Source: a virus
Virus record (IMG/VR): IMGVR_UViG_3300043331_002222
Reading direction: 5' to 3' (one strand)
Length of the DNA stretch: 64,000 bases
Shown: piece after piece, positions 4,827 to 32,067 of the stretch
Position numbering within the stretch: position 1 is the first letter of the stretch
How the letters are laid out: every line of letters starts with the position of its first letter
Notes under the pieces: generated by a model
Databases searched by the model: none
What the model saw: only the letters and a program-made list of their open reading frames with translations
What the model was told of the DNA's origin: nothing
Position numbers and translations under genes: made by a program

Positions 4827-4855
4827 ATCTTACACCTACTGACCGATGACGTCCA
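4827..4855 (-). promoter_or_regulatory. Promoter TGGACG-N17-TAAGAT, leaderless for 4820
   Basis: -10 box ends 6 nt before the ATG. Confidence 0.7.
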
Positions 4856-5615
4856 GCCCCTGGCTCAAGCGATCGAACACGTCCGTCCTGGCCGGGGATG
4901 GCGAGAGCTCCGGCTTCCGGTTCGGTGTCCGGCTCCCCCGAGCGCTCTGGTGCGCTGCTGGGCTGTACCACCACGGCGACGGCCCAGCGAGGGGTCCGGA
5001 GGGCTGGGTGGGATCCCAGCCACCCCGGTAGAGGAGCGCGACGAGCTCCTCGTAGGCCGTCTGCCAGTGCAGGTCCACGACGGGCAGCCCCCGCTCCAAG
5101 AATGTTCGGCGGATCAACTGGACCCTGGCCCAGCTCCGCCGGCCCGTGTCCTCGAGGTTGACCCCCTGGCGGGTCGGCCCCTGCCCGTTGTTGCGGACCA
5201 GCAGCCGAGGGAGGACCACGTTGACCGGGGTGTCCAGGAACGCGAACACGACCGGCAGGCCCGGCGCCCGCTCCTCCTGGAGGGTCCTCCACAGCTCCTC
5301 GCTCCGACCGATCACCAGGCTGGCCATCAGCCCCTCGAACAGCACGTGCTTGTGCCGGAGGCAGTGCCAGTGCAGCCACTCCCAGACCTTCTGGGTGGTC
5401 CCGCTCGAGAAGGCGTCCAGCCCCCCGGTCTTCGTGGTGGCCGAGTAACCGCCGAGGACGGCGAGGTCACCGGGGAGGAGCTGGGCGGTCAGCTTCGGGC
5501 GGAGCTTGTTCCACCCCCCCTCGTAGAGCTTGTCCACCGGCGGGTAGTCCCGCAGGAGCCGAGTCACGACCGAGGACTTCCCCGAGCAGCTCGAGCCCCG
5601 TACCTGTACGATCAC
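4836..5615 (-). CDS. P-loop nucleotide kinase, 5-hydroxymethyluracil-DNA-kinase-like
   Basis: N-terminal IVQVRGSSCSGKSS, AVLGGY..GGLD, VLFEGL, FAFLDTP..V..RLLVRN pattern; near an AADT-like gene; start moved to GTG 5615. Confidence 0.7.
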   Translation of the reverse strand: MIVQVRGSSCSGKSSVVTRLLRDYPPVDKLYEGGWNKLRPKLTAQLLPGDLAVLGGYSATTKTGGLDAFSSGTTQKVWEWLHWHCLRHKHVLFEGLMASLVIGRSEELWRTLQEERAPGLPVVFAFLDTPVNVVLPRLLVRNNGQGPTRQGVNLEDTGRRSWARVQLIRRTFLERGLPVVDLHWQTAYEELVALLYRGGWDPTQPSGPLAGPSPWWYSPAAHQSARGSRTPNRKPELSPSPARTDVFDRLSQGLDVIGQ

Positions 5616-5773
5616 CGTGGCCTCCTCGAGACCAGCCAGCTCCGGTGACGAGTGAACAGCCGGAAGTCGTAGCCCCACTCCCCCGTCTGGTACTCGACCC
5701 CGAGGCGGCGCCTACCACCCCAGTGGACGTAGAACGAGTGGAAGCTGTTCTTGGGTGGTCGGTCGAGGATCAC
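5612..5773 (-). CDS. Small hypothetical protein (53 aa, not in ORF track)
   Basis: VILDRPPKNSFHSFYVHW...; GTGA overlaps on both sides. Confidence 0.45.
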   Translation of the reverse strand: MILDRPPKNSFHSFYVHWGGRRRLGVEYQTGEWGYDFRLFTRHRSWLVSRRPR

Positions 5774-5970
5774 AGCGCATCTCCCCTCGTCCCGGTCCGC
5801 TTGCCAGCGCCCCGCCGGAGCTGTTCTGGGCCACCCTCGGTCGGGTCCGCCCCGCTACCGACCTCGGGCAGCCCCCGGGTGTCGCGCAGCCAGCGCCGGC
5901 CCTCCCGCCAGGTACGATGCCAGCTGCGAGGGCGCTTCGTGCCTTTGTGGTGCTGGCGCCGCCGGCTCAC
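5770..5970 (-). CDS. Small Arg-rich hypothetical protein
   Basis: Fills the gap with GTGA overlaps. Confidence 0.4.
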   Translation of the reverse strand: MSRRRQHHKGTKRPRSWHRTWREGRRWLRDTRGLPEVGSGADPTEGGPEQLRRGAGKRTGTRGDAL

Positions 5971-6422
5971 GTTTGGCCGTTCAGGAACAGGGTCGGCGCC
6001 GGGAGGCTGACCAACCACTCGTACTGGGCCTGGTTGGCTAGAGCGTTCGGCCGGCGAGAGCGCACCCAGCTGGCAGCCTGCGCCCCGCTGTAGCAGTAGC
6101 GCTCCCGGATGACCAGGGCTGCGACGAGGCAGGCTCGGTTGCGCCCAGCGTCACAGTGGACAGCGGTCCGGTAGCCCGCCTCGAGGAAGAACTGGACCTG
6201 CCGCACGGCGATCTGGAGCCCCTCCTCGTCGGGCTTCTTGCCGTCAGGTAGCGCGATGTGGCTCCACAGCCCCAGCTTCTGGAAGTCAGCGAGGACGTCG
6301 TCGGGCGGGACCCGGTGGTTGACGCTCAGGAGCGCTGTCACCCCAAAGCGAGTCAGCTGGTCCAGCCGGGTGGGTCGGCTCATGACCCAGAGCTGGTCGT
6401 CTACCTGCCAGGGACCGCTCAC
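5967..6422 (-). CDS. Dual-specificity/tyrosine-type phosphatase
   Basis: HCDAGRNRAC (HCx5R) loop, IALPDG general-acid loop, C-terminal RPNALAN..Q. Confidence 0.85.
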   Translation of the reverse strand: MSGPWQVDDQLWVMSRPTRLDQLTRFGVTALLSVNHRVPPDDVLADFQKLGLWSHIALPDGKKPDEEGLQIAVRQVQFFLEAGYRTAVHCDAGRNRACLVAALVIRERYCYSGAQAASWVRSRRPNALANQAQYEWLVSLPAPTLFLNGQT

Positions 6423-6667
6423 TTCGTTCCTCGCTTCCAGCGCTGGGCAGGCTTGGTACCCCACTGCACGTACTGCTCTCGCCACTCGTGATCGCGATGC
6501 TCGGTCCACCGGCTGAGCCTCTCTCGCAGTGACCCGTCAGCGACGTCGCGCTGCCAGGTGCGCCCGTTGCCGAGTAGCCAGGAGGTCAGGATTTCCCACG
6601 GTCCCCGGTACATGATCTGGAGGTAGAAGCGTCGCTGTTCGACGCTCCCCTTCACTCGGTTCGTCAT
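6419..6667 (-). CDS. Hypothetical protein
   Basis: AAGGAGACGAG-ATG start; overlaps the next gene. Confidence 0.55.
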   Translation of the reverse strand: MTNRVKGSVEQRRFYLQIMYRGPWEILTSWLLGNGRTWQRDVADGSLRERLSRWTEHRDHEWREQYVQWGTKPAQRWKRGTK

Positions 6668-6704
6668 CTCGTCTCCTTCTCGTCGTGCGGTCCAGCCTAC
6701 CACG

Positions 6705-7715
6705 TTAGTAGGCAACACCCTCGGGGTAGCGGGCGACCCAGAGGTCCTCGAGCTCCTTCCGCGGGCCGTTCCAACCGTTCACCTCGCCGAGCCACAGTGG
6801 GTCGAACACCTGCCGCCGCACGGTGTAGAAGCTGAAGTGCTCGAGCAGGTTGGTCTCCCACCGCGCCCAATAGTCCTCGGCCGTTCGGAAGAACATGAGC
6901 TCGCGGTCCTGTGAGCGGCCGGGGTACTTGTTCTGACCGCACGCCTGACGGTAGGTGCACAGCACCGTCTCGAGCTGGTACCAGTTCAGGTCGACGCCGC
7001 ACTCCTCGAGCCAAGCCTTGGTGACCTGTGCCAGGTCCTGCGCGATCGGGTCCGACAGCTTGGGAACCTGCTGCAGGGCTTCGGCGTGGCCCGGGAATAG
7101 CCGAGCCAGCGTCTTGCGGGGGTACTTGGCCCCGTCCGGCCGCATGTCGACCATCCGGGTCGCGAGCAGCCCCCGCTGGTAGAGGGTCTCGGTGGTCTTC
7201 ATCAGCGCGTAGCGGCCGAACCCCCAGGTCATCCCGTCGATGGAGTTCCACACGTCCTCGAACTGCTCCGGCCCCAGGTGTCGGACCACCGGCCAGTCGA
7301 CCTCGCACCACCGGCGCCAGGACTGCCACGCCTCGAAGAACCGCTGGCGACCCTTGACCGCTCGGCGCTCCTTGCGGATCGGCAGCCCCTCGCCCCAGTG
7401 CTCGTCGATCCACTTTGGAGAGAGGTCCAGCCCTCGCAGCAGCCAGTTCCACTGGGCCGCGGCCCCGGCGCAGGTGTAGCTGTTGACGAACGCGCCGGCC
7501 AGCAGCACGGCGGTCTCGTCGTCGAACGCCCGGAGGGCCTGGCTGGTCGTCCGGATCTGCGGGTCGGGTCCGCCGGCAGCCAGCTCCCACGTGACGTAGT
7601 CGAGGAACCAGAACCAGTGGTGGTTGCCATTGACCTGCGCCATGGACACGGGCTCGGCGAACCGCTGCCGCAGGTCAACGAGGCGCTCGAAGTCAGGTGG
7701 CGCTGTGATCGTCAC
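6705..7715 (-). CDS. Amino acid:DNA transferase-like protein (aGPT-Pplase2/AADT family, HhH glycosylase-like fold)
   Basis: GFGRYALMKTTETL and YQLETVLCTYRQ...KYPGRSQDRE motifs, C-terminal RRQVFDPLWLGEVNGWNGPRK; GGAGG RBS before GTG 7715. Confidence 0.75.
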   Translation of the reverse strand: MTITAPPDFERLVDLRQRFAEPVSMAQVNGNHHWFWFLDYVTWELAAGGPDPQIRTTSQALRAFDDETAVLLAGAFVNSYTCAGAAAQWNWLLRGLDLSPKWIDEHWGEGLPIRKERRAVKGRQRFFEAWQSWRRWCEVDWPVVRHLGPEQFEDVWNSIDGMTWGFGRYALMKTTETLYQRGLLATRMVDMRPDGAKYPRKTLARLFPGHAEALQQVPKLSDPIAQDLAQVTKAWLEECGVDLNWYQLETVLCTYRQACGQNKYPGRSQDRELMFFRTAEDYWARWETNLLEHFSFYTVRRQVFDPLWLGEVNGWNGPRKELEDLWVARYPEGVAY

Positions 7716-7971
7716 CTGCTGCCTCCTCCCGCCGGCGTAGCTCTTGGCGTACCCGGTCGTTGCTGGCGCTCGCAACGAACCAGACCAGCGCGACCAGTGC
7801 CGCGGTCAAGTACCACCGGAGGTCGCTCAACCAGATGCCGAGCAGTGACAACACGAACACCGCTACGAAGGCGACCCGGGTCACCCACTTGAAGATCACC
7901 CGAGACTGCTCGAGGCGGTCCGTCGTCGCTTCCCGGAGCATGCGCTCCGTCTCTGTCTTCCTGTCGTCCAC
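7693..7971 (-). CDS. Two-TM membrane protein
   Basis: Two hydrophobic helices; AAGGAG RBS. Confidence 0.65.
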   Translation of the reverse strand: MDDRKTETERMLREATTDRLEQSRVIFKWVTRVAFVAVFVLSLLGIWLSDLRWYLTAALVALVWFVASASNDRVRQELRRREEAAGDDHSAT

Positions 7972-14861: not shown

Positions 14862-14962
14862 AGAAGCTCGCCGAGCAGGCAGTCACTCTGGTCGTTGCCG
14901 GCTGCCTCATCGCCATCTTCCTCGCCGGCACGCTCCGGCTCGTTGACTGGATCTTGCCGTGA
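14858..14962 (+). CDS. Small membrane peptide (34 aa)
   Basis: TTGA and GTGA overlaps; one hydrophobic helix; GAGGAG RBS. Confidence 0.45.
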   Translation: MKKLAEQAVTLVVAGCLIAIFLAGTLRLVDWILP

Positions 14963-15816
14963 GGCGCTACGACCTGCCGGACCTGCGCACCGGCTACGTC
15001 ACGCTCTGCGACTTGCTCCGCCACACCGGCAAGCTCGTCGCTCCCCGTGGTCAGCGCACCCTCGAGGTCGAAGACGCCGTGATCACGGTCGAGGACCTGA
15101 GCGACACTCTCCCGATCGGGGTGGGCCGGGGTGTCAACCTGCAGTTCGCGGCTCTGGAGGCTCTGCAGCTGGTCAGCGGGCTGTCCACCCCCGAGCTCCT
15201 CGTTGCGGTCCGGCCCGAGTTCTTGAAGTACCTCGAGGCAGACGGTAGCCAGCACGGAGCCTACGGTTCCAGAGTCCACAGCCAGGCGTCCAACGTGGTT
15301 TACAAGCTGCGCCAGGACAATGACTCGCGTCAGGCCGTCATCACCCTGTGGAACCCGCTCATCGACAACGAGCCGGGCCACGAGGACTACCCGTGCACCA
15401 TCGCGCTGGGGTTCCGGGTCCGCAAGGACAAGCTCAACCTCAGTGTCACGATGCGCTCCAACGACGCGTGGCTCGGGGTCGCGTACGACGTGTTCCAGTT
15501 CACCCAGCTCCAGCACACCGTCGCCGCTGAGCTCGGAGTCGCAGTCGGTAGCTACACCCACACCGCCTGGAGCCTCCACCTCTACGAGCGGGACTGGGCC
15601 AAGGTCGAGGAGCTTCACGAGCCCAGCGGAGTCGTTCACAACCTCCCGCATGGCATCAGCCGCACTTTCGCGAGGAAGCTGCTGACCGAGCCACACACCA
15701 TCGGCGTGTTCGACGGGCTAGAGCACCAGGAGGGACTCCTCGCACCCGGTGACACCTGGTACGTCCACCAGGCCCGCAAGGCCTGGGACGCTTACTACGA
15801 ACGGAACCCACTGTGA
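14959..15816 (+). CDS. Thymidylate-synthase-fold enzyme, probably dCMP (hydroxy)methylase-type
   Basis: PRG, AYG, SRQAV, DYPCT, MRSNDAWLGVAYDVFQF, SLHLYERD; Asp at the E. coli Asn177-equivalent position. Confidence 0.85.
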   Translation: MRRYDLPDLRTGYVTLCDLLRHTGKLVAPRGQRTLEVEDAVITVEDLSDTLPIGVGRGVNLQFAALEALQLVSGLSTPELLVAVRPEFLKYLEADGSQHGAYGSRVHSQASNVVYKLRQDNDSRQAVITLWNPLIDNEPGHEDYPCTIALGFRVRKDKLNLSVTMRSNDAWLGVAYDVFQFTQLQHTVAAELGVAVGSYTHTAWSLHLYERDWAKVEELHEPSGVVHNLPHGISRTFARKLLTEPHTIGVFDGLEHQEGLLAPGDTWYVHQARKAWDAYYERNPL

Positions 15817-16340
15817 GTGACGAGACCCGCGCCGACTGGGACGAGACCTGGCTCGAGGTGGCCCGTACGGTCGCCAAGCGCAGCCGCTGCGAGCGGGACC
15901 AGGTCGGAGCCGTGATCGTGGACCCGCGCAACCGGATTGTCGCGACCGGGTACAACGGCCCACCGGCTGGCTTTCCCGCCGGTGTGGGCACGTTCGTCCG
16001 TGGTCAGCGGAACGAGTTCGCCAAGCAAGTCCGTGACTGTTCCTTCTTCTGCAAGCGGGCCATGCACGGACCATCCAGCGAGACCCTTCACTCGTACGTG
16101 GACTGCTGCGCTAACCACGCCGAGGTCAACGCCCTGAGCGTGTGCGACCGCTCCGTCCGAGAGGGCGGCACCCTCTACGTCTCGAGCGACGTGTGCATGA
16201 CCTGCGCGAAGATCATCGCGAACTCGGGGCTGGTCAGGGTCGTGGTCGGTGCCCGGACCGACCGGGAGTACCGCCGGGCCAGCGAGGGTTACGCCTTCAT
16301 GCGGATGTGTGGCATCACCGTCGAAGAGGTCCTGCCGTGA
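15813..16340 (+). CDS. dCMP deaminase
   Basis: RSRCERDQVGAVI, ATGYNG, HAEVNAL, CxxC zinc ligands (VCMTC). Confidence 0.9.
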   Translation: MSDETRADWDETWLEVARTVAKRSRCERDQVGAVIVDPRNRIVATGYNGPPAGFPAGVGTFVRGQRNEFAKQVRDCSFFCKRAMHGPSSETLHSYVDCCANHAEVNALSVCDRSVREGGTLYVSSDVCMTCAKIIANSGLVRVVVGARTDREYRRASEGYAFMRMCGITVEEVLP

Positions 16341-25276: not shown

Positions 25277-25762
25277 GTGGACCTCAAGGAGTTCCTCGGC
25301 CTGCAGCAGGAGCTGCAGGTCGAGGCCTTCCACCGAGACCCCACCGTCCTGCGGGGAGCGGAGCGGTCAGCGTTCATCCTCTGGAACGCGTACGCCCTCG
25401 AAGACGAGGTGCACGAAGCGACCAGCGAGGTAAGCTGGAAGCCGTGGGCACAGGGCGACCGCTTCGACCGGGACGCGTTCCTCGGTGAGCTGGTCGACGC
25501 ACTGCACTTCCTCGGCAACCTCCTTCTCACCACGGTCGAACCCGACGGGTCGATCGACTCTCTCGCCAAGGAAGTCGGTGAACGGTACAAGGCCAAGCGC
25601 CAGCGGAACCTGGAGCGGCAGCTCGAGGGGTACGACGGCGTGTCGACCAAGTGCCCAGGCTGCAAGCGAGCCCTCGATACTGCCGAGGCAACGGTGACGG
25701 TGGACGGCTGCCTGTTCTGCCGTGGCTGCGGCCGGTTGCTCCAGGAGCCGGCACCCACGTGA
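25277..25762 (+). CDS. All-alpha (dimeric dUTPase/MazG-like) dNTP pyrophosphohydrolase with C-terminal zinc finger
   Basis: EDEVHE...SWKPW, ELVDALHF, KRQRNLERQ; CPGC...CRGC. Confidence 0.8.
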   Translation: MDLKEFLGLQQELQVEAFHRDPTVLRGAERSAFILWNAYALEDEVHEATSEVSWKPWAQGDRFDRDAFLGELVDALHFLGNLLLTTVEPDGSIDSLAKEVGERYKAKRQRNLERQLEGYDGVSTKCPGCKRALDTAEATVTVDGCLFCRGCGRLLQEPAPT

Positions 25763-25947
25763 CGACCATGGTCCGCCTCGACTGTGGTCACGTCTACGAG
25801 GCAGACCACAAGAGCGGTGACCGGTCGGTCGAGTGCTGCGAGACGCTGTACGGCGTCCGAGCCAACCTCCCGACCGAGGTCACCTACGAAGTACGCGTCA
25901 TCAGACCGGCACCCAAGCCGGACGATGAAGAAGAGGAGGGCACGTGA
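25759..25947 (+). CDS. Small Cys-rich protein
   Basis: LDCGH...ECC; GTGA overlaps. Confidence 0.5.
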   Translation: MTTMVRLDCGHVYEADHKSGDRSVECCETLYGVRANLPTEVTYEVRVIRPAPKPDDEEEEGT

Positions 25948-26600
25948 GAAGGACCATCACCAAGGCGCTTGGGCTGGCCGCGGCCGCCCTTCTCCTGGTC
26001 GCCGCTAGCTGCCAGTCGTCCGTCAACTCCACCACCCCGAGCGGGGTGAAAGTTCACTGGCAGCAGACTAGCTCAGCGACGCTGGAGCGAGAGATCACCG
26101 TCATCGTGCCGGCCGAGTACGCCTACAGCTCGACGATGTACGCGGTCAACAACGCTGTGCTGCAGGCCAACCGCTCGCCGTACCTACACCTCACCATACA
26201 CGTCCCGAACGTCGCACCGGTCTCGTGCCCGACCACCCACTGCGTGATCGTCACGAGGGCAGACCTGCCCTACCCGAACGTCGAGAAGACGACGTGGGGG
26301 TGGAACTCGGCCGGCCACATGTACGGCATCGCCGCCCGCGTGATTCTGGACAGCGTCCAGGCCAACGGCCTACCCCACCCGACCAACGTCTTGGTCAATG
26401 CCGGCTGTCACGGGATCGCCGGCCACGCTATGGGACTGAGCCACGGTGACATCGAGGGGCCGTGCCAGGGTGGCAAGCTGACCGGCACCGACCTCGCGAA
26501 CATCGCCGCCGCACACCGGCACCGAGACGCTGTGGTCTACGGTACGGCCTCCCAGGGGGCGGTCACGCTGAAGACGAGCGAGACGAGCGACGGGAGCTGA
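25944..26600 (+). CDS. Lipoprotein/secreted protein with degenerate matrixin-like motif
   Basis: Signal peptide with lipobox-like LLLVAASC; HGIAGHAMGLSH. Confidence 0.7.
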   Translation: MRRTITKALGLAAAALLLVAASCQSSVNSTTPSGVKVHWQQTSSATLEREITVIVPAEYAYSSTMYAVNNAVLQANRSPYLHLTIHVPNVAPVSCPTTHCVIVTRADLPYPNVEKTTWGWNSAGHMYGIAARVILDSVQANGLPHPTNVLVNAGCHGIAGHAMGLSHGDIEGPCQGGKLTGTDLANIAAAHRHRDAVVYGTASQGAVTLKTSETSDGS

Positions 26601-26604
26601 GGAG

Positions 26605-27828
26605 ATGCGGGCGGTCGACTGCCAGGGGTTCGCCGGGGGCTTCACCACGGGGGTGGTCCGGGCCGGCTTCAAGCTGGTCCACAAGGCGGAGATGGCGGCC
26701 GGCTTTGGCGTCGTCAACTGCACCAGTAACCGTCACGTCCTCGGCTACGACTGGCAGGTGCAGACCTGCGACCCGAGCGAGTGGGAGCCCGTCGAGGCGG
26801 AGTTCGTCTTCGGCAACCCGCCCTGCTCGGGTTTCAGCCTGCTGTCCAACCGCTCCTTCAGGGGCGTCGACAGCCCGATCAACCACTGCATGCACGCTCT
26901 CGTGGGGTACGCGGGGGCGATCGACCCCCAGGTGATCGCCTTCGAGAGCGTCGCGCAGGCGTACAAGGAGGGGCTGCCGCTCATGCGTCAGCTCCACCAG
27001 AAACTGATGGCGCAGACCGGCCACGACGACTGGCAGCTGTACCACGTGCTCCACAACAACCTCTCGGTCGGTGGTTGCGCCGTACGGCGGCGCTACTTCT
27101 GGGTGGCCAGTCGCGTTCCGCTCGAGTTCAGCTACCCCGAGCTCTCGTACCTCCCCACCGTCCGTGACGCGATCCAGGACCTCGAGCACCTGGCGCTGAC
27201 GTGGGAACTCCAGCCGTATGGCAGCCCGGACTTCGGCACGAGGTGGAGCCGCCAGCTCCGTGCACCCGGCGGGTACACGGACGGCCACCACCCGCTCCCC
27301 GACGACACCGGTGACCGCCGGCTGTGGGCGCTCCGCGAGCACAGTGAGCCCTGGGAGGAGGGAGAGACCCTGCGGGACTGGGCGCGCCGGACCTACGACC
27401 GGTTGGGCACCCTCCCCGAGCCGTGGACCCAGCAGCAGCTGCAGCGCCACGTCGAGAAAGAGTGGGACGGGTTCGGGTTCCACCAGCCGAAGCGGTGGCG
27501 CTACGACCGGCAGGCCCACGTGATCACCGGTGGCAGCCCGGGCAGCGTCGTGCACCCGACACAGTACCGCCACCTGACCATGCGCGAAGTCGCCCGGATC
27601 ATGGGCTTCCCGGACACCTGGCGGATCGCGCCCTACCGTGACAGCAGGACCATGAAGGAGAGCTGGGGCAAGGGCATCCCCGTCCACAGCGGCCTGTGGC
27701 TGGCGCGCTGCGTGCGCGCTGCCCTGGAGGGACGGCAGCCCGAGGGTGAACTGGCACCACACCAACTGACGCTGGACCAAGAGCACATCGTCGACGTGAC
27801 CAAGCCCCACCTCCGGGAGGTAGCCTGA
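26605..27828 (+). CDS. C5-cytosine DNA methyltransferase-fold protein with atypical cofactor motifs
   Basis: Motif IV GNPPCSGFS, VI FESV, VIII RRRYF, IX REVARIMGFP, X GKGIP, motif I DCQGFAGGF. Confidence 0.85.
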   Translation: MRAVDCQGFAGGFTTGVVRAGFKLVHKAEMAAGFGVVNCTSNRHVLGYDWQVQTCDPSEWEPVEAEFVFGNPPCSGFSLLSNRSFRGVDSPINHCMHALVGYAGAIDPQVIAFESVAQAYKEGLPLMRQLHQKLMAQTGHDDWQLYHVLHNNLSVGGCAVRRRYFWVASRVPLEFSYPELSYLPTVRDAIQDLEHLALTWELQPYGSPDFGTRWSRQLRAPGGYTDGHHPLPDDTGDRRLWALREHSEPWEEGETLRDWARRTYDRLGTLPEPWTQQQLQRHVEKEWDGFGFHQPKRWRYDRQAHVITGGSPGSVVHPTQYRHLTMREVARIMGFPDTWRIAPYRDSRTMKESWGKGIPVHSGLWLARCVRAALEGRQPEGELAPHQLTLDQEHIVDVTKPHLREVA

Positions 27829-27832
27829 AGAC

Positions 27833-28189
27833 ATGAGCGAGACCACTACCACACCGACTGACCGCGGCCGTCCAACGACGGTCGTGCAGCGGGACCTGAT
27901 GGTGGCCCGCCTGCTCCACGAGGAACCGCGCCCACTGCAGCAGGTGGCCGACATCGTCGCCGCCGGAAGCTGGCGGACCGCCTATAACGCGGTCTGCCGC
28001 CTGCGAGAGCGAGGCCTGGCCGAGCTCCACCGGACCGGGAGCCGCACCCCAGTCTGGCGGCTGACCGACCAGGGCCGTGAGTGGCTGACGGACAACACCG
28101 CCGCGGTGATGCCGCCGCAGGAGTCGGTCCCGCCGGCTCCAGAAGGCGGGCCGATCGCCCAAGCCGCAGGGTTCTCGACCGTCTACTGA
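27833..28189 (+). CDS. Winged-HTH protein
   Basis: PLQQVADIV...AYNAVCRLRERGLAE...WRLTDQGR. Confidence 0.7.
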   Translation: MSETTTTPTDRGRPTTVVQRDLMVARLLHEEPRPLQQVADIVAAGSWRTAYNAVCRLRERGLAELHRTGSRTPVWRLTDQGREWLTDNTAAVMPPQESVPPAPEGGPIAQAAGFSTVY

Positions 28190-31008: not shown

Positions 31009-32067
31009 TCACGGTGTCCTCCTTACCCGCTTCTCGTACTCGATAGCCCAGGACCACGCTTCGGCCCACTGCCAGGCCTGGTCCTCGAGCACGAACTGCT
31101 CTTTGACCGCGGCCCGGCCGGCTTCGCTCTGCTCGATCCTGAACCGCTCGTCACGCAGCAGCTTCTTGAGGCAGCCCTCCCACTGCTTGGGCTTCTCGGC
31201 GAGCAGCCCGACCCCGCTCTCGCGCTGCAGCAGCGTGTACTCCTCTCGGGGGCTCATCACGACCGGCACGCCACAGGCCATCGCCTCGAGGGGCTTGAGC
31301 CAGCTCTTCGCCGCGTTGAACGAGGTGTCAGCGAGCGGGGCGATCGTCACCCCGCTCTTCGCGACCTCTACCGGCCAGTAGTCGAACTCGACGGTGCCGA
31401 CGGCGGGGACGGACCGACCGTCCAGGCCGAGCGCATCGTCCACGCCGACGCCCGAGCCGATGACCTGGAACTCGGCTCCATCCCGGACCAGACTCCAGAT
31501 AGAAGGACCGAGGACCGACAGGTCGTCCGGGTGAGAGTGCAGGCTGCCGCACCACGTGATCCGCTTCCCGTCACGGTGGGGCACCTCGAGGAAGTGCTTG
31601 GGCACGTAGTTGTGTAGCACCCGGCCCCGCCCGTGCGGTGCGTAGCGCTGCAGAAGTTGCTCGGTCGAGCAGGTGACTAAGGTCGCGTCACGGCACGCCT
31701 GCTGGGCGGCTAGCCAGTTGTGCGCTGTGTTCGACTTCGGGTGCATAGCCGCGAACGCAGGGTTGCGGGGGTGGATGCGGGCTAGGTCGTCGTCCATGTC
31801 GATGATGACCGCCACGCCCTGGGCTCGGATGAGTGGGACCGCCTGCGAGATCAACGTGAACGTGGGCCGTTGGATCACGACCGCCGTAGCGTCACTGGGG
31901 ACGATCGCCCGGCGCATCCGGCCGTGCTGGTCGACGAAACCACCGAACATCGAGCGGTCACCGGGCACGACCACCTCGATCTCGATCCCCTCGGCCGCTC
32001 GGCCTGGCCACAGTAGCCGGTAGTGGCCACAGGCCCACATGTCCGATGGGTAGACGTAGACCTTCAT
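31009..32067 (-). CDS. GT-B (family 4-like) glycosyltransferase
   Basis: CGHYRLLWP, IIDMDDDL, VTCSTEQL, IAPLADTSFNAAKSWLKPLEAMACGVPVVMS. Confidence 0.88.
   Translation of the reverse strand: MKVYVYPSDMWACGHYRLLWPGRAAEGIEIEVVVPGDRSMFGGFVDQHGRMRRAIVPSDATAVVIQRPTFTLISQAVPLIRAQGVAVIIDMDDDLARIHPRNPAFAAMHPKSNTAHNWLAAQQACRDATLVTCSTEQLLQRYAPHGRGRVLHNYVPKHFLEVPHRDGKRITWCGSLHSHPDDLSVLGPSIWSLVRDGAEFQVIGSGVGVDDALGLDGRSVPAVGTVEFDYWPVEVAKSGVTIAPLADTSFNAAKSWLKPLEAMACGVPVVMSPREEYTLLQRESGVGLLAEKPKQWEGCLKKLLRDERFRIEQSEAGRAAVKEQFVLEDQAWQWAEAWSWAIEYEKRVRRTP

What the first reader, a model, noticed from the sequence alone, without database searches (positions are those of the whole stretch)
26605..27828. C5-methyltransferase fold with Asn->Lys in motif X and a remodelled SAM motif: possibly not a methyltransferase
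Seen: the catalytic PC (GNPPCSGFS), motif VI Glu (ESV) and motif VIII Arg are intact, but motif I is DCQGFAGGF (canonical DLFAGxGG) and motif X is GKGIP (canonical GNxVP). Established: the engineered Asn->Lys change at this motif X position (M.MpeI N374K) turns a C5-MTase into a carboxymethyltransferase using carboxy-SAM; C5-MTases without SAM can also couple nucleophiles to 5hmC. Inference: a natural enzyme that installs 5-carboxymethylcytosine or another non-methyl group, or tailors 5hmC made by the Asp-type TS homologue. Caveat: no CmoA-like carboxy-SAM synthase was recognised in the window.
Basis: partly seen in the sequence, partly recalled or inferred. Interest (0 to 1): 0.85.

Follow-up and report, generated by a model that had tools for sequence, protein, structure and literature searches.

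The report
Lysine-bearing methylase relative tied to hydroxymethylcytosine
This phage gene belongs to a large, uncharacterised, phage-only branch of the DNA cytosine-methylase family that always has a lysine where the methyl donor normally sits and is found only in phages that also make hydroxymethyl-cytosine, so it probably does some untested chemistry on that modified base, not ordinary methylation or carboxymethylation.

Summary
ORF 26605-27828(+) is a confident C5-cytosine-methyltransferase fold (Pfam E 1e-15; AF2 pLDDT 94.6; Z 30 to DNMT1). It keeps the catalytic PPC cysteine, the motif VI Glu and the RxR arginines. Lys356 sits at the motif X Asn position, ENV is ESV, PCQ is PCS, and motif I is remodelled.

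The Lys defines a family: K in 138 of 145 representatives, N in none. The family looks phage-only.

The carboxy-SAM reading is not supported. CmoA was not found in the window, in 4 cultured carrier phages or in 32 long viral contigs, and was over cut-off in 0 of 301 sampled Actinomycetota genomes. True CmoX homologues, including one in a Streptomyces phage that carries its own CmoA, keep canonical motifs and use Arg.

The family instead accompanies a thymidylate-synthase homologue with the dCMP-hydroxymethylase signature (D143/D169/D177) in 34 of 34 checked cases. A MazG-like pyrophosphatase is usually adjacent, and most loci hold a T4 beta-glucosyltransferase-like protein. Two sister phages with the same replication module lack both genes. 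Some members are fused to a 5-hydroxymethylpyrimidine DNA kinase domain or to O-methyltransferase-type domains.

Best reading: a post-replicative enzyme of the 5hmC pathway; its reaction is unknown. The scan noted the same pairing earlier on other DNA (e1-2862946).

The parts
26605..27828 (+). C5-cytosine-methyltransferase-fold gene (P0001, 407 aa) of the Lys-type ('GKG') phage family
   Evidence: PF00145 E 1.2e-15. AF2 pLDDT 94.6. VIA-align Z 30.4 to DNMT1, 28.4 to M.HaeIII, 24.2 to CmoX 8yf3.
26617..26643 (+). Remodelled motif I, DCQGFAGGF (D5-F13). The canonical Phe is Gln and the first Gly is Phe.
   Evidence: Alignment to M.HaeIII and to CmoX homologues. Conserved as D-[CV]-Q-G-[FL]-A-G-[GA]-x in the family.
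26812..26838 (+). Motif IV, GNPPCSGFS, with catalytic Cys74
   Evidence: PPC is present in 131-132 of 133 aligned representatives.
26944..26952 (+). Motif VI, ESV (Glu114 kept; the canonical Asn is Ser)
   Evidence: E in 145 of 146 and S in 141 of 146 aligned representatives.
27085..27099 (+). Motif VIII, RRRYF (R161, R163)
   Evidence: R161 in 147 of 150 and R163 in 150 of 150.
27667..27675 (+). Motif X, G355-K356-G357, with Lys at the position of M.HhaI Asn304
25277..25762 (+). MazG-like / dUTPase_2 nucleoside-triphosphate pyrophosphohydrolase. This is the usual immediate upstream neighbour of the family and a candidate dCTPase.
   Evidence: PF08761. phrog_18650 E 2e-32. Upstream of the gene, median about 1 kb centre to centre, in 53 of 85 loci.
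27833..28189 (+). Small winged-helix protein, translationally coupled downstream. In some relatives it is fused to the C-terminus of the methylase-like protein.
   Evidence: HTH_29 weak hit. TrmB/MarR-like C-terminal extensions in P0016, P0131 and P0122.
14959..15816 (+). Thymidylate-synthase homologue with a cytosine-hydroxymethylase signature (D143, D169, D177 in E. coli ThyA numbering)
   Evidence: Best PDB match is MilA CMP hydroxymethylase, E 5e-20. Signature residues, read with the rules in PMC13326640.
13899..14861 (+). dNMP (thymidylate-type) kinase homologue next to the TS homologue
   Evidence: phrog_761 E 1.4e-18. dNK weak hit.
15813..16340 (+). dCMP deaminase
   Evidence: PF00383 E 3.5e-18.

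Best explanation
The gene encodes a member of a phage-only clade of C5-cytosine-methyltransferase-fold enzymes that belongs to the 5-hydroxymethylcytosine (5hmC) DNA-modification pathway. It is neither a stand-alone SAM methylase nor a carboxy-SAM carboxymethylase.

Shown:
- The fold, and the residues for flipping a cytosine-type base and attacking C6 (Cys74, Glu114, Arg161/163), are conserved.
- The residues round the methyl-transfer site are systematically changed: Asn to Lys356, ENV to ESV, PCQ to PCS, and motif I remodelled.
- The gene is present only where a dCMP-hydroxymethylase-type TS homologue is present.

Inferred:
- The phage replaces C by 5hmC before replication, using the TS homologue, a dNMP kinase and a MazG-like pyrophosphatase.
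- The enzyme then works on DNA after replication, using covalent Cys-C6 catalysis for the SAM-independent hydroxymethyl chemistry that ordinary C5-methyltransferases show as side reactions in vitro.
- That chemistry would be either exchange of the 5-CH2-OH hydroxyl (or a phosphate ester of it) for another group through an exocyclic methylene intermediate, or aldehyde addition to cytosines that escaped replacement.
- Lys356, at the spot where the methylsulfonium normally sits, would act as general acid/base or would bind the anionic leaving group.

The exact product is not known.
For: (1) Lys356 is a family signature: 120 of 120, then 138 of 145, with no Asn. PPC, ESV and RxR are near-invariant.

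(2) Co-occurrence with the TS homologue:
- It is present in 31 of 32 long IMG/VR carrier contigs and in 24 of 24 that are at least 90% complete.
- All 34 checked (window, 4 cultured phages, 29 contigs) have D143/D169/D177. Per PMC13326640 this is the hydroxymethylase signature, not the methylase or 5-hydroxy-C synthase signature.
- In the phage collection, the 13 Gordonia records with this TS type are exactly the 13 with the Lys-type gene.
- Kurnik carries a different, T4 gp42-like Asp-type TS yet keeps the Lys-type gene.

(3) Co-absence: Arthrobacter phage Atuin and Microbacterium phage Cece share the PolA-helicase-exonuclease-RecA-like module at 36-39% identity, but have neither a ThyA-family gene nor any PF00145 gene.

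(4) Neighbourhood: the usual gene order is BGT-like GT-B protein, sugar-nucleotide genes, MazG-like, then the methylase-like gene. The BGT-like protein is in 55 of 85 loci, and its best PDB matches are four T4 beta-glucosyltransferase entries.

(5) Fusions: HMUDK_hel, the 5-hydroxymethylpyrimidine DNA kinase domain, at E 5e-40 in P0248. FkbM-type or UbiG-like methyltransferase domains in at least 10 representatives.

(6) Cofactor site:
- The motif II acid is missing in about a quarter of the family, including all four cultured carrier phages.
- The positions of the two adenine-stacking aromatics of CmoX are Gln7 and Met30 here.

(7) The family was not found in 185,579 species genomes by two family-specific peptide patterns. 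Its nearest Atlas clusters are 98-100% viral.
Against: There is no biochemical datum for any member.

Glu29, the glycine-rich loop and Asn42 are kept in the window's subfamily, so an adenosyl cofactor may still bind.

An engineered Asn-to-Lys enzyme still methylates with SAM.

The carriers share a conserved replication module. Part of the co-occurrence may therefore reflect common descent rather than functional coupling, and the co-absence test rests on two sister genomes.

T-even phages make and glycosylate 5hmC without any such enzyme, so its role must be accessory.

In the window itself the BGT-like gene is absent.

The position of the Lys side chain relative to C5 could not be measured.
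Confidence: 0.45

Rival explanations
1. It is an ordinary SAM-dependent C5-methyltransferase that methylates cytosines left unmodified in phage DNA, or particular sites. The Lys would be a neutral or tuning change of this clade.
For: Complete C5-MTase fold with all catalytic residues. Glu29 and the G-rich loop are kept in the window's subfamily. M.MedI-N377K still methylates more than 99% with SAM.
Against: It does not explain the strict conservation of Lys, ESV and PCS over 33-60% identity. It does not explain the loss of the motif II acid in a quarter of members. It does not explain the both-or-neither pattern with the hydroxymethylase. The TRD is alignable across the whole family rather than swapped as in restriction-modification methylases. 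The family was not found in cellular genomes.
Confidence: 0.22
2. It is a natural carboxy-SAM-dependent cytosine C5-carboxymethyltransferase. The Lys would bind the carboxylate as in M.MpeI N374K, or as Arg350 does in CmoX.
For: A basic residue at this position is what confers Cx-SAM use in the engineered enzymes and in SpCmoX.
Against: No CmoA in the window (positive control: the same query finds 83 phage records). None in 4 complete carrier phages. None in 32 carrier contigs, 24 of them at least 90% complete.

CmoA was over cut-off in 0 of 301 sampled Actinomycetota. Three full-length matches fell below threshold, one of them in the unpublished genome G038.

Streptomyces phage TurkishDelight has a CmoX-type enzyme (SPPC, ENV, QxRxR, G-R) and brings its own CmoA-like and amide-ligase genes.

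The conserved neighbour of the Lys family is a BGT-like glycosyltransferase, not an AMP-forming ligase. If C5 of the phage's cytosines is already occupied, nothing can be transferred to it.
Confidence: 0.07
3. It acts on cytosine-containing (host) DNA, while the phage's own 5hmC DNA is immune. One example is C5 protonation by the Lys leading to C-to-U deamination or covalent trapping, as a host-shutoff or DNA-degradation aid.
For: An enzyme harmful to C-DNA would be tolerable only in phages that lack C in their own DNA, which also predicts the strict dependence on the hydroxymethylase. C5-MTases deprived of SAM are known to deaminate C (established knowledge, not tested here). The Lys sits where the electrophile normally is.
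Against: Fusions to a hydroxymethylpyrimidine DNA kinase domain and to O-methyltransferase-type domains, and the position inside the sugar/GT module, point to tailoring of the phage's own base. There is no direct evidence.
Confidence: 0.12
4. It is a catalytically silent DNA-binding or base-flipping protein, for example a reader or scaffold for the neighbouring glycosyltransferase.
For: Remodelled cofactor site. Adjacent or fused winged-helix domain.
Against: Near-invariant Cys, Glu and Arg catalytic residues across a very divergent family argue for chemistry.
Confidence: 0.05

Closest known systems
Canonical DNA cytosine-C5 methyltransferases (M.HaeIII, M.HhaI, DNMT1 catalytic domain; Pfam PF00145)
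   Same: Same fold including a DNMT1/HaeIII-like target-recognition region: Z 30.4 over 350 residues with DNMT1, Z 28.4 with HaeIII. Same PPC cysteine, motif VI Glu, RxR and motif IX.
   Different: Motif X Asn is Lys, ENV is ESV, PCQ is PCS, and in motif I Phe is Gln and Gly is Phe. The motif II acid is absent in about 25% of the family. The family is phage-only and is tied to a dCMP-hydroxymethylase gene.
CmoX, the natural DNA cytosine C5-carboxymethyltransferase of Synechococcus phage S-B43 (PDB 8YF3; PMC12783734)
   Same: A phage-encoded C5-MTase-fold enzyme with a basic residue in place of the motif X Asn, installing a non-methyl group as a handle for hypermodification.
   Different: CmoX has Arg, SPPC, canonical FxGxGG, ENV and QxRxR. 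It travels with CmoA, an amide ligase and ParB-like genes. The window protein shares none of these. It is structurally no closer to 8yf3 (Z 24.2, rank 38) than to ordinary methylases. No CmoA was found.
Engineered M.MpeI N374K and M.MedI N377K
   Same: The identical Asn-to-Lys change at motif X.
   Different: Those are single substitutions in otherwise canonical SAM pockets and need supplied Cx-SAM. M.MedI-N377K still methylates with SAM. Here the whole cofactor side is remodelled and no Cx-SAM source is evident.
T-even phage 5hmC pathway (gp42 dCMP hydroxymethylase, gp1 dNMP kinase, gp56 dCTPase, beta-glucosyltransferase)
   Same: The carrier phages have the analogous set: a D143/D169/D177 TS homologue, a dNMP kinase homologue, a MazG-like pyrophosphatase and, in most loci, a BGT-like GT-B protein.
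   Different: T-even phages have no C5-MTase-fold component. Its presence is the new element.
Phage C5-MT plus TET/5mYOX route to 5hmC (bioRxiv 10.1101/2023.12.21.572611)
   Same: A phage-specific C5-MTase clade linked to 5hmC and to glycosyltransferases.
   Different: There the methylase makes 5mC for oxidation after replication, and no TS homologue is needed. Here the TS homologue is always present. No Tet_JBP match was seen in 32 carrier contigs, but that search's control was silent.

Membership tests
DNA cytosine-C5 methyltransferase superfamily (PF00145) | Overall fold and Pfam match | tested here: met
   PF00145 E 1.2e-15. Z 25-30 to HhaI, HaeIII and DNMT1.
DNA cytosine-C5 methyltransferase superfamily (PF00145) | Catalytic Pro-Cys (motif IV), motif VI Glu, motif VIII RxR | tested here: met
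   PPC74, E114, R161/R163, all near-invariant in the family.
DNA cytosine-C5 methyltransferase superfamily (PF00145) | SAM-binding motif I FxGxG | tested here: not met
   DCQGFAGGF: the Phe position is Gln7 and the first Gly is Phe9.
DNA cytosine-C5 methyltransferase superfamily (PF00145) | Motif X Gly-Asn facing the methyl donor | tested here: not met
   G355-K356. No Asn in 145 aligned representatives.
DNA cytosine-C5 methyltransferase superfamily (PF00145) | Methyl transfer from SAM to C5 | not testable with these tools
   Needs an enzyme assay.
CmoX (Cx-SAM-dependent cytosine C5-carboxymethyltransferase) | SPPC motif and Arg at the HhaI Asn304 position (the authors' search criteria) | tested here: not met
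   NPPC and Lys356. CmoX homologues of S-CRM01 and TurkishDelight show SPPC and G-R.
CmoX (Cx-SAM-dependent cytosine C5-carboxymethyltransferase) | A Cx-SAM synthase (CmoA) in the phage or host | tested here: not met
   No CmoA in the window. 0 of 4 and 0 of 32 carrier genomes. 0 of 301 Actinomycetota over cut-off. The rest of this phage's genome, if any lies beyond the 64-kb window, is not held.
CmoX (Cx-SAM-dependent cytosine C5-carboxymethyltransferase) | Neighbouring AMP-forming amide ligase (CmoY) or ParB-like genes | tested here: not met
   The neighbours are MazG-like, a lipoprotein and a wHTH in the window, and a BGT-like GT plus sugar genes in relatives.
T4-type pre-replicative 5hmC pathway (context of the gene) | TS homologue with Asp at ThyA 177 and 143, and Asp kept at 169 | tested here: met
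   DYPC...RSND...AYD in the window, and the same in all 34 checked.
T4-type pre-replicative 5hmC pathway (context of the gene) | dNMP kinase and dCTP-removing pyrophosphatase | tested here: inconclusive
   Homologues are present (phrog_761, phrog_18650), but their substrate specificity is unknown.
T4-type pre-replicative 5hmC pathway (context of the gene) | 5hmC actually present in virion DNA | not testable with these tools
   Needs LC-MS of virion DNA.

The most novel reading that the evidence does not exclude
A natural C5-methyltransferase-fold enzyme has given up SAM. It uses Cys-C6 covalent catalysis to rework 5-hydroxymethylcytosine in DNA, exchanging the hydroxyl (or a phosphate ester of it) for another nucleophile through an exocyclic methylene intermediate. 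Lys356 would act as the acid/base or the leaving-group binder. This would be the first dedicated enzyme for chemistry so far known only as an in vitro side reaction of methylases, and a new route to hypermodified cytosines.
Probability: 0.3. Interest if true: 0.9.

Novelty: new variant of a known kind. Interest (0 to 1): 0.72.

Why it matters
If the family works on 5hmC, or otherwise transfers something other than methyl, it adds a new enzyme class to phage DNA hypermodification and explains a gene that is routinely annotated 'methyltransferase' in actinophage genomes. Enzymes that derivatise C or 5hmC site-selectively are also wanted as tools for epigenome sequencing, as the engineered Asn-to-Lys methylases already show.

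The family is directly testable. Four groups of cultured phages (GodonK-like, GMA2, Kurnik, DSL-LC01) carry it, some on the genetically tractable host Gordonia terrae 3612.

Even the mundane outcome would be informative. A methylase that serves as a back-up in 5hmC phages would be a new piece of anti-restriction biology.

Tried and rejected
- No whole genome is held for the window, so the rest of the phage or host could not be searched.
- Megablast of 14 kb against cultured phages found nothing.
- The earlier-findings look-up by sequence found nothing.
- Literature searches for the family, for Kurnik, for GMA2 DNA modification and for 5hmC-tailoring methylase homologues found no characterisation. 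The MetaGPA paper and the 5hoC paper do not mention such a methylase.
- CmoA was not found in the window, in carrier phages or in sampled Actinomycetota.
- HMUDK_hel and ADDT were each found in only 1 of 32 carrier contigs, so the kinase/AADT route is not the general partner.
- The Tet_JBP search gave 0 of 32, but its control was silent, so it is uninformative.
- The fused class-I methyltransferase domains and the DSL-LC01 upstream methyltransferase do not match CmoA. They are FkbM or UbiG-like.
- The conserved 450-aa neighbour was tested as a possible CmoY-like ligase. It folds as a GT-B and is closest to T4 beta-glucosyltransferase.
With a tighter alignment it found no relatives.
- Model coordinates are not exposed, so the Lys-to-cofactor geometry could not be measured.
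- Complex prediction was not used, because no protein-protein claim is made.
Full report
**The gene.** ORF 26605-27828 (+) encodes 407 aa (P0001). It lies in a plus-strand replication and nucleotide-metabolism operon of a high-GC (about 68%) phage-like window. A GGGAG/GGAG ribosome site precedes it, and it is translationally coupled to the genes on either side. It matches Pfam PF00145 at E 1.2e-15. An AlphaFold2 model built on 44 homologues is very confident, with pLDDT 94.6 and pTM 0.93. The model superposes on DNMT1 (Z 30.4, 350 residues), prophage methylase 3g7u (Z 29.1), M.HaeIII (Z 28.4), M.HhaI (Z 25.3), CmoX 8yf3 (Z 24.2) and M.MpeI (Z 23.4).

- HMMER aligns WGKGIPV with the IGNAVPV of M.HaeIII, which puts Lys356 at the motif X Asn.
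- Motif I reads DCQGFAGGF: the canonical Phe is Gln7 and the first Gly is Phe9.
- The catalytic PPC (Cys74), Glu114 and Arg161/163 are present.
ENV is ESV, and the residue after the Cys is Ser, not Gln.

**The Lys defines a family.**
- Among the 120 closest proteins (45-61% identity) Lys356 is invariant, as are NPPCS, ESV, RxRYF and RE.AR..GFPD.
- An exhaustive HMMER search gave 160 cluster representatives at E below 1e-30. Of the best 150, the position is K in 138 of 145 aligned, R in 2 and N in none.
- Cultured carriers are Micrococcus phage Kurnik, the GodonK-like Gordonia phages, Gordonia phage GMA2 and Actinomycetia phage DSL-LC01. All have G-K.
- Two subfamilies exist. Subfamily A has K-x-E29, NPPCS and GFAGGF; it makes up about 75% and includes the window. 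Subfamily B has R-x-[S/A/G], [T/C/V]PPCS and GLAG.; it makes up about 25% and lacks the motif II acid that binds the cofactor ribose in class-I methyltransferases. The four cultured carrier phages also lack that acid at the aligned position.
- The target-recognition region is alignable throughout the family.
- The family looks phage-only. The nearest ESM-Atlas clusters are 98-100% viral, and two family-specific peptide patterns found no relative in one genome each of 185,579 prokaryote species.

**The carboxy-SAM reading.** A natural cytosine C5-carboxymethyltransferase is now known: CmoX of Synechococcus phage S-B43. It has Arg350 at the HhaI Asn304 position and needs a phage CmoA. The authors retrieved 5,615 homologues by SPPC plus Arg, mostly with CmoA, amide ligases and ParB-like genes nearby (PMC12783734). 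I tested those features.
- EcCmoA by tblastn finds nothing in the window, although the same query finds 83 phage records.
- TIGR00740 finds nothing in the four complete carrier phages or in 32 long IMG/VR carrier contigs, 24 of them at least 90% complete. The E. coli control was positive.
- In 301 Actinomycetota genomes drawn evenly from the phylum, none has CmoA over the curated cut-off. Three have full-length sub-threshold matches, one of them in the unpublished genome G038. Five named actinobacteria have none.
- An actinophage that does have a CmoX-type enzyme brings its own CmoA. Streptomyces phage TurkishDelight carries ParB, ParB, C5-MTase, a glutamine-amidotransferase/Asn-synthetase-like gene and a CmoA-like gene.
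- Gordonia phage Evaa, on the same host strain as GodonK, also has a CmoA-like gene.
- The TurkishDelight and S-CRM01 enzymes show canonical FxGxGG, SPPC, ENV, QxRxR and G-R, none of which the window protein shares.
- An engineered N377K enzyme still methylates fully with SAM (PMC12015181). The Lys alone therefore decides nothing.

**What the family does travel with.**
- Every carrier has a ThyA-family homologue: the window, all four cultured phages and 31 of 32 long contigs. The one exception is 80% complete.
- All 34 that I could read have Asp at E. coli ThyA positions 143, 169 and 177.
- By the rules set out in PMC13326640, N177D means cytosine substrate, an acidic residue at 143 means hydroxymethyl and not methyl, and D169N marks 5-hydroxy-C synthases. 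The signature here is therefore that of a dCMP hydroxymethylase.
- In the phage collection, the 13 Gordonia records holding this TS type are exactly the 13 holding the Lys-type gene.
- Kurnik has a different, T4 gp42-like Asp-type TS but keeps the Lys-type gene.
- Arthrobacter phage Atuin and Microbacterium phage Cece share the same PolA-helicase-exonuclease-RecA-like module at 36-39% identity, yet have neither a ThyA-family gene nor any PF00145 gene. The pattern is both or neither.

**Neighbourhood and fusions.**
- Clustering the ORFs of 85 loci gives a conserved order: PolA, SNF2 helicase, Cas4-like exonuclease, AAA_24, DUF669, a 450-aa protein (55 loci), sugar-nucleotide genes (NAD epimerase, nucleotidyltransferase plus kinase, STELLO/RGP-like), MazG-like pyrophosphatase (53 loci), the methylase-like gene, and then a small protein, WhiB or DUF932.
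- The 450-aa protein has no Pfam or PHROG match. It folds confidently (pLDDT 86.7), and its four best PDB matches are T4 beta-glucosyltransferase, the 5hmC-DNA glucosyltransferase.
- About a quarter of the representatives are longer than 480 aa.
- Their extensions include the helical domain of the 5-hydroxymethylpyrimidine DNA kinase (E 5e-40, P0248), FkbM-type methyltransferase domains (seven representatives), UbiG-like domains (three), and a winged helix that matches the window's separate downstream gene. One member carries an intein.
- None of the extra methyltransferase domains resembles CmoA.

**Interpretation.**
- The conserved Cys, Glu and Arg residues say that a cytosine-type base is flipped out and attacked at C6.
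- The genomic evidence says that the phage's cytosines are made as 5hmC, and that the enzyme is kept only in that setting, next to enzymes that act on the 5-hydroxymethyl group.
- A 5-substituted cytosine cannot accept a further group at C5. Either the enzyme reworks the 5-CH2-OH group, or it treats the few cytosines that escaped replacement.
- Both are SAM-independent reactions that C5-methyltransferases are known to perform weakly in vitro: aldehyde addition and removal, and exchange of the 5hmC hydroxyl. That is established literature recalled from my own knowledge and was not tested here.
- A Lys at the site of the methylsulfonium would be well placed as acid/base or as an anion binder. 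The variable adenine-contact positions and the missing motif II acid in a quarter of the family fit a site that no longer has to hold SAM.
- This mechanism is inference. I put it at about 0.45 for 'a 5hmC-pathway enzyme doing non-methyl chemistry', and about 0.3 for the specific exchange chemistry.
- Rivals: an ordinary SAM methylase as back-up (0.22), attack on C-containing host DNA (0.12), carboxymethylation (0.07) and a silent binder (0.05).

**Caveats.** The carriers share a replication module, so their co-occurrence is not a set of independent events, and the co-absence test used two genomes. The window's own phage lacks the BGT-like gene and instead has a kinase, phosphatase and ADDT-like trio on its left arm. 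No experiment exists for any member.

**Earlier notes of this scan.** One note on another genome reported the same pairing of a hydroxymethylase with an odd phage-only methylase (e1-2862946). Notes on this window flagged the Asp-type TS and the kinase/AADT pair (e1-5360941, e1-5360936). I used these as leads and checked them here as far as stated.

Noticed in passing
window 4836-7775 (-): A putative P-loop kinase (4836-5678; no Pfam hit, and its only PHROG match, 8e-12, is to a 'terminase small subunit' family), a dual-specificity phosphatase (5967-6509, DSPc 2e-9) and a weak ADDT (amino acid:DNA transferase) match (6705-7775, E 4.6e-4, below cut-off). This looks like a second, post-replicative hydroxymethylpyrimidine hypermodification module. 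It is rare among the other carriers of the Lys-type gene: HMUDK_hel and ADDT were each found in 1 of 32.
   Followed up: partly
window 25944-26600 (+): A 218-aa protein with a lipoprotein-type signal (…LLLVAASC) and an H..G..H-like metal motif sits between the MazG-like gene and the methylase-like gene. It has no Pfam or PHROG match and no counterpart at this position in related loci.
   Followed up: no
L027:4466-5815 and 54 other loci (cluster c4): A conserved 450-aa protein without any family match folds as a GT-B and is closest to T4 beta-glucosyltransferase. It is probably an unannotated family of 5hmC-DNA glycosyltransferases in actinophage-like viruses. It is absent from the window.
   Followed up: partly
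L125 (Streptomyces phage TurkishDelight 88817-93606): A complete CmoX-type cluster in an actinophage: two ParB-like genes, a C5-MTase with SPPC and G-R, a glutamine-amidotransferase/Asn-synthetase-like gene and a CmoA-like gene. This predicts 5-carboxymethylcytosine-derived DNA in a Streptomyces phage.
   Followed up: partly
P0248, P0239, P0147, P0150, P0152, P0232, P0255, P0127, P0135, P0138, P0184, P0209: Natural fusions of the Lys-type domain: to a 5-hmdU DNA kinase helical domain, to FkbM-type or UbiG-like methyltransferase domains, and one member interrupted by an intein with a LAGLIDADG domain.
   Followed up: partly
window 31009-32067 (-): A GT-B-type glycosyltransferase (Glyco_trans_1_4) lies among the tail and lysis genes. 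It has homologues at the same relative position in 24 related loci. Whether it glycosylates DNA or virion proteins is open.
   Followed up: no
L251 (Arthrobacter phage Atuin): Sister phages with the same replication module carry ThyX inside the module, and a MazG-like gene but no ThyA-family hydroxymethylase and no C5-MTase-like gene.
   Followed up: yes
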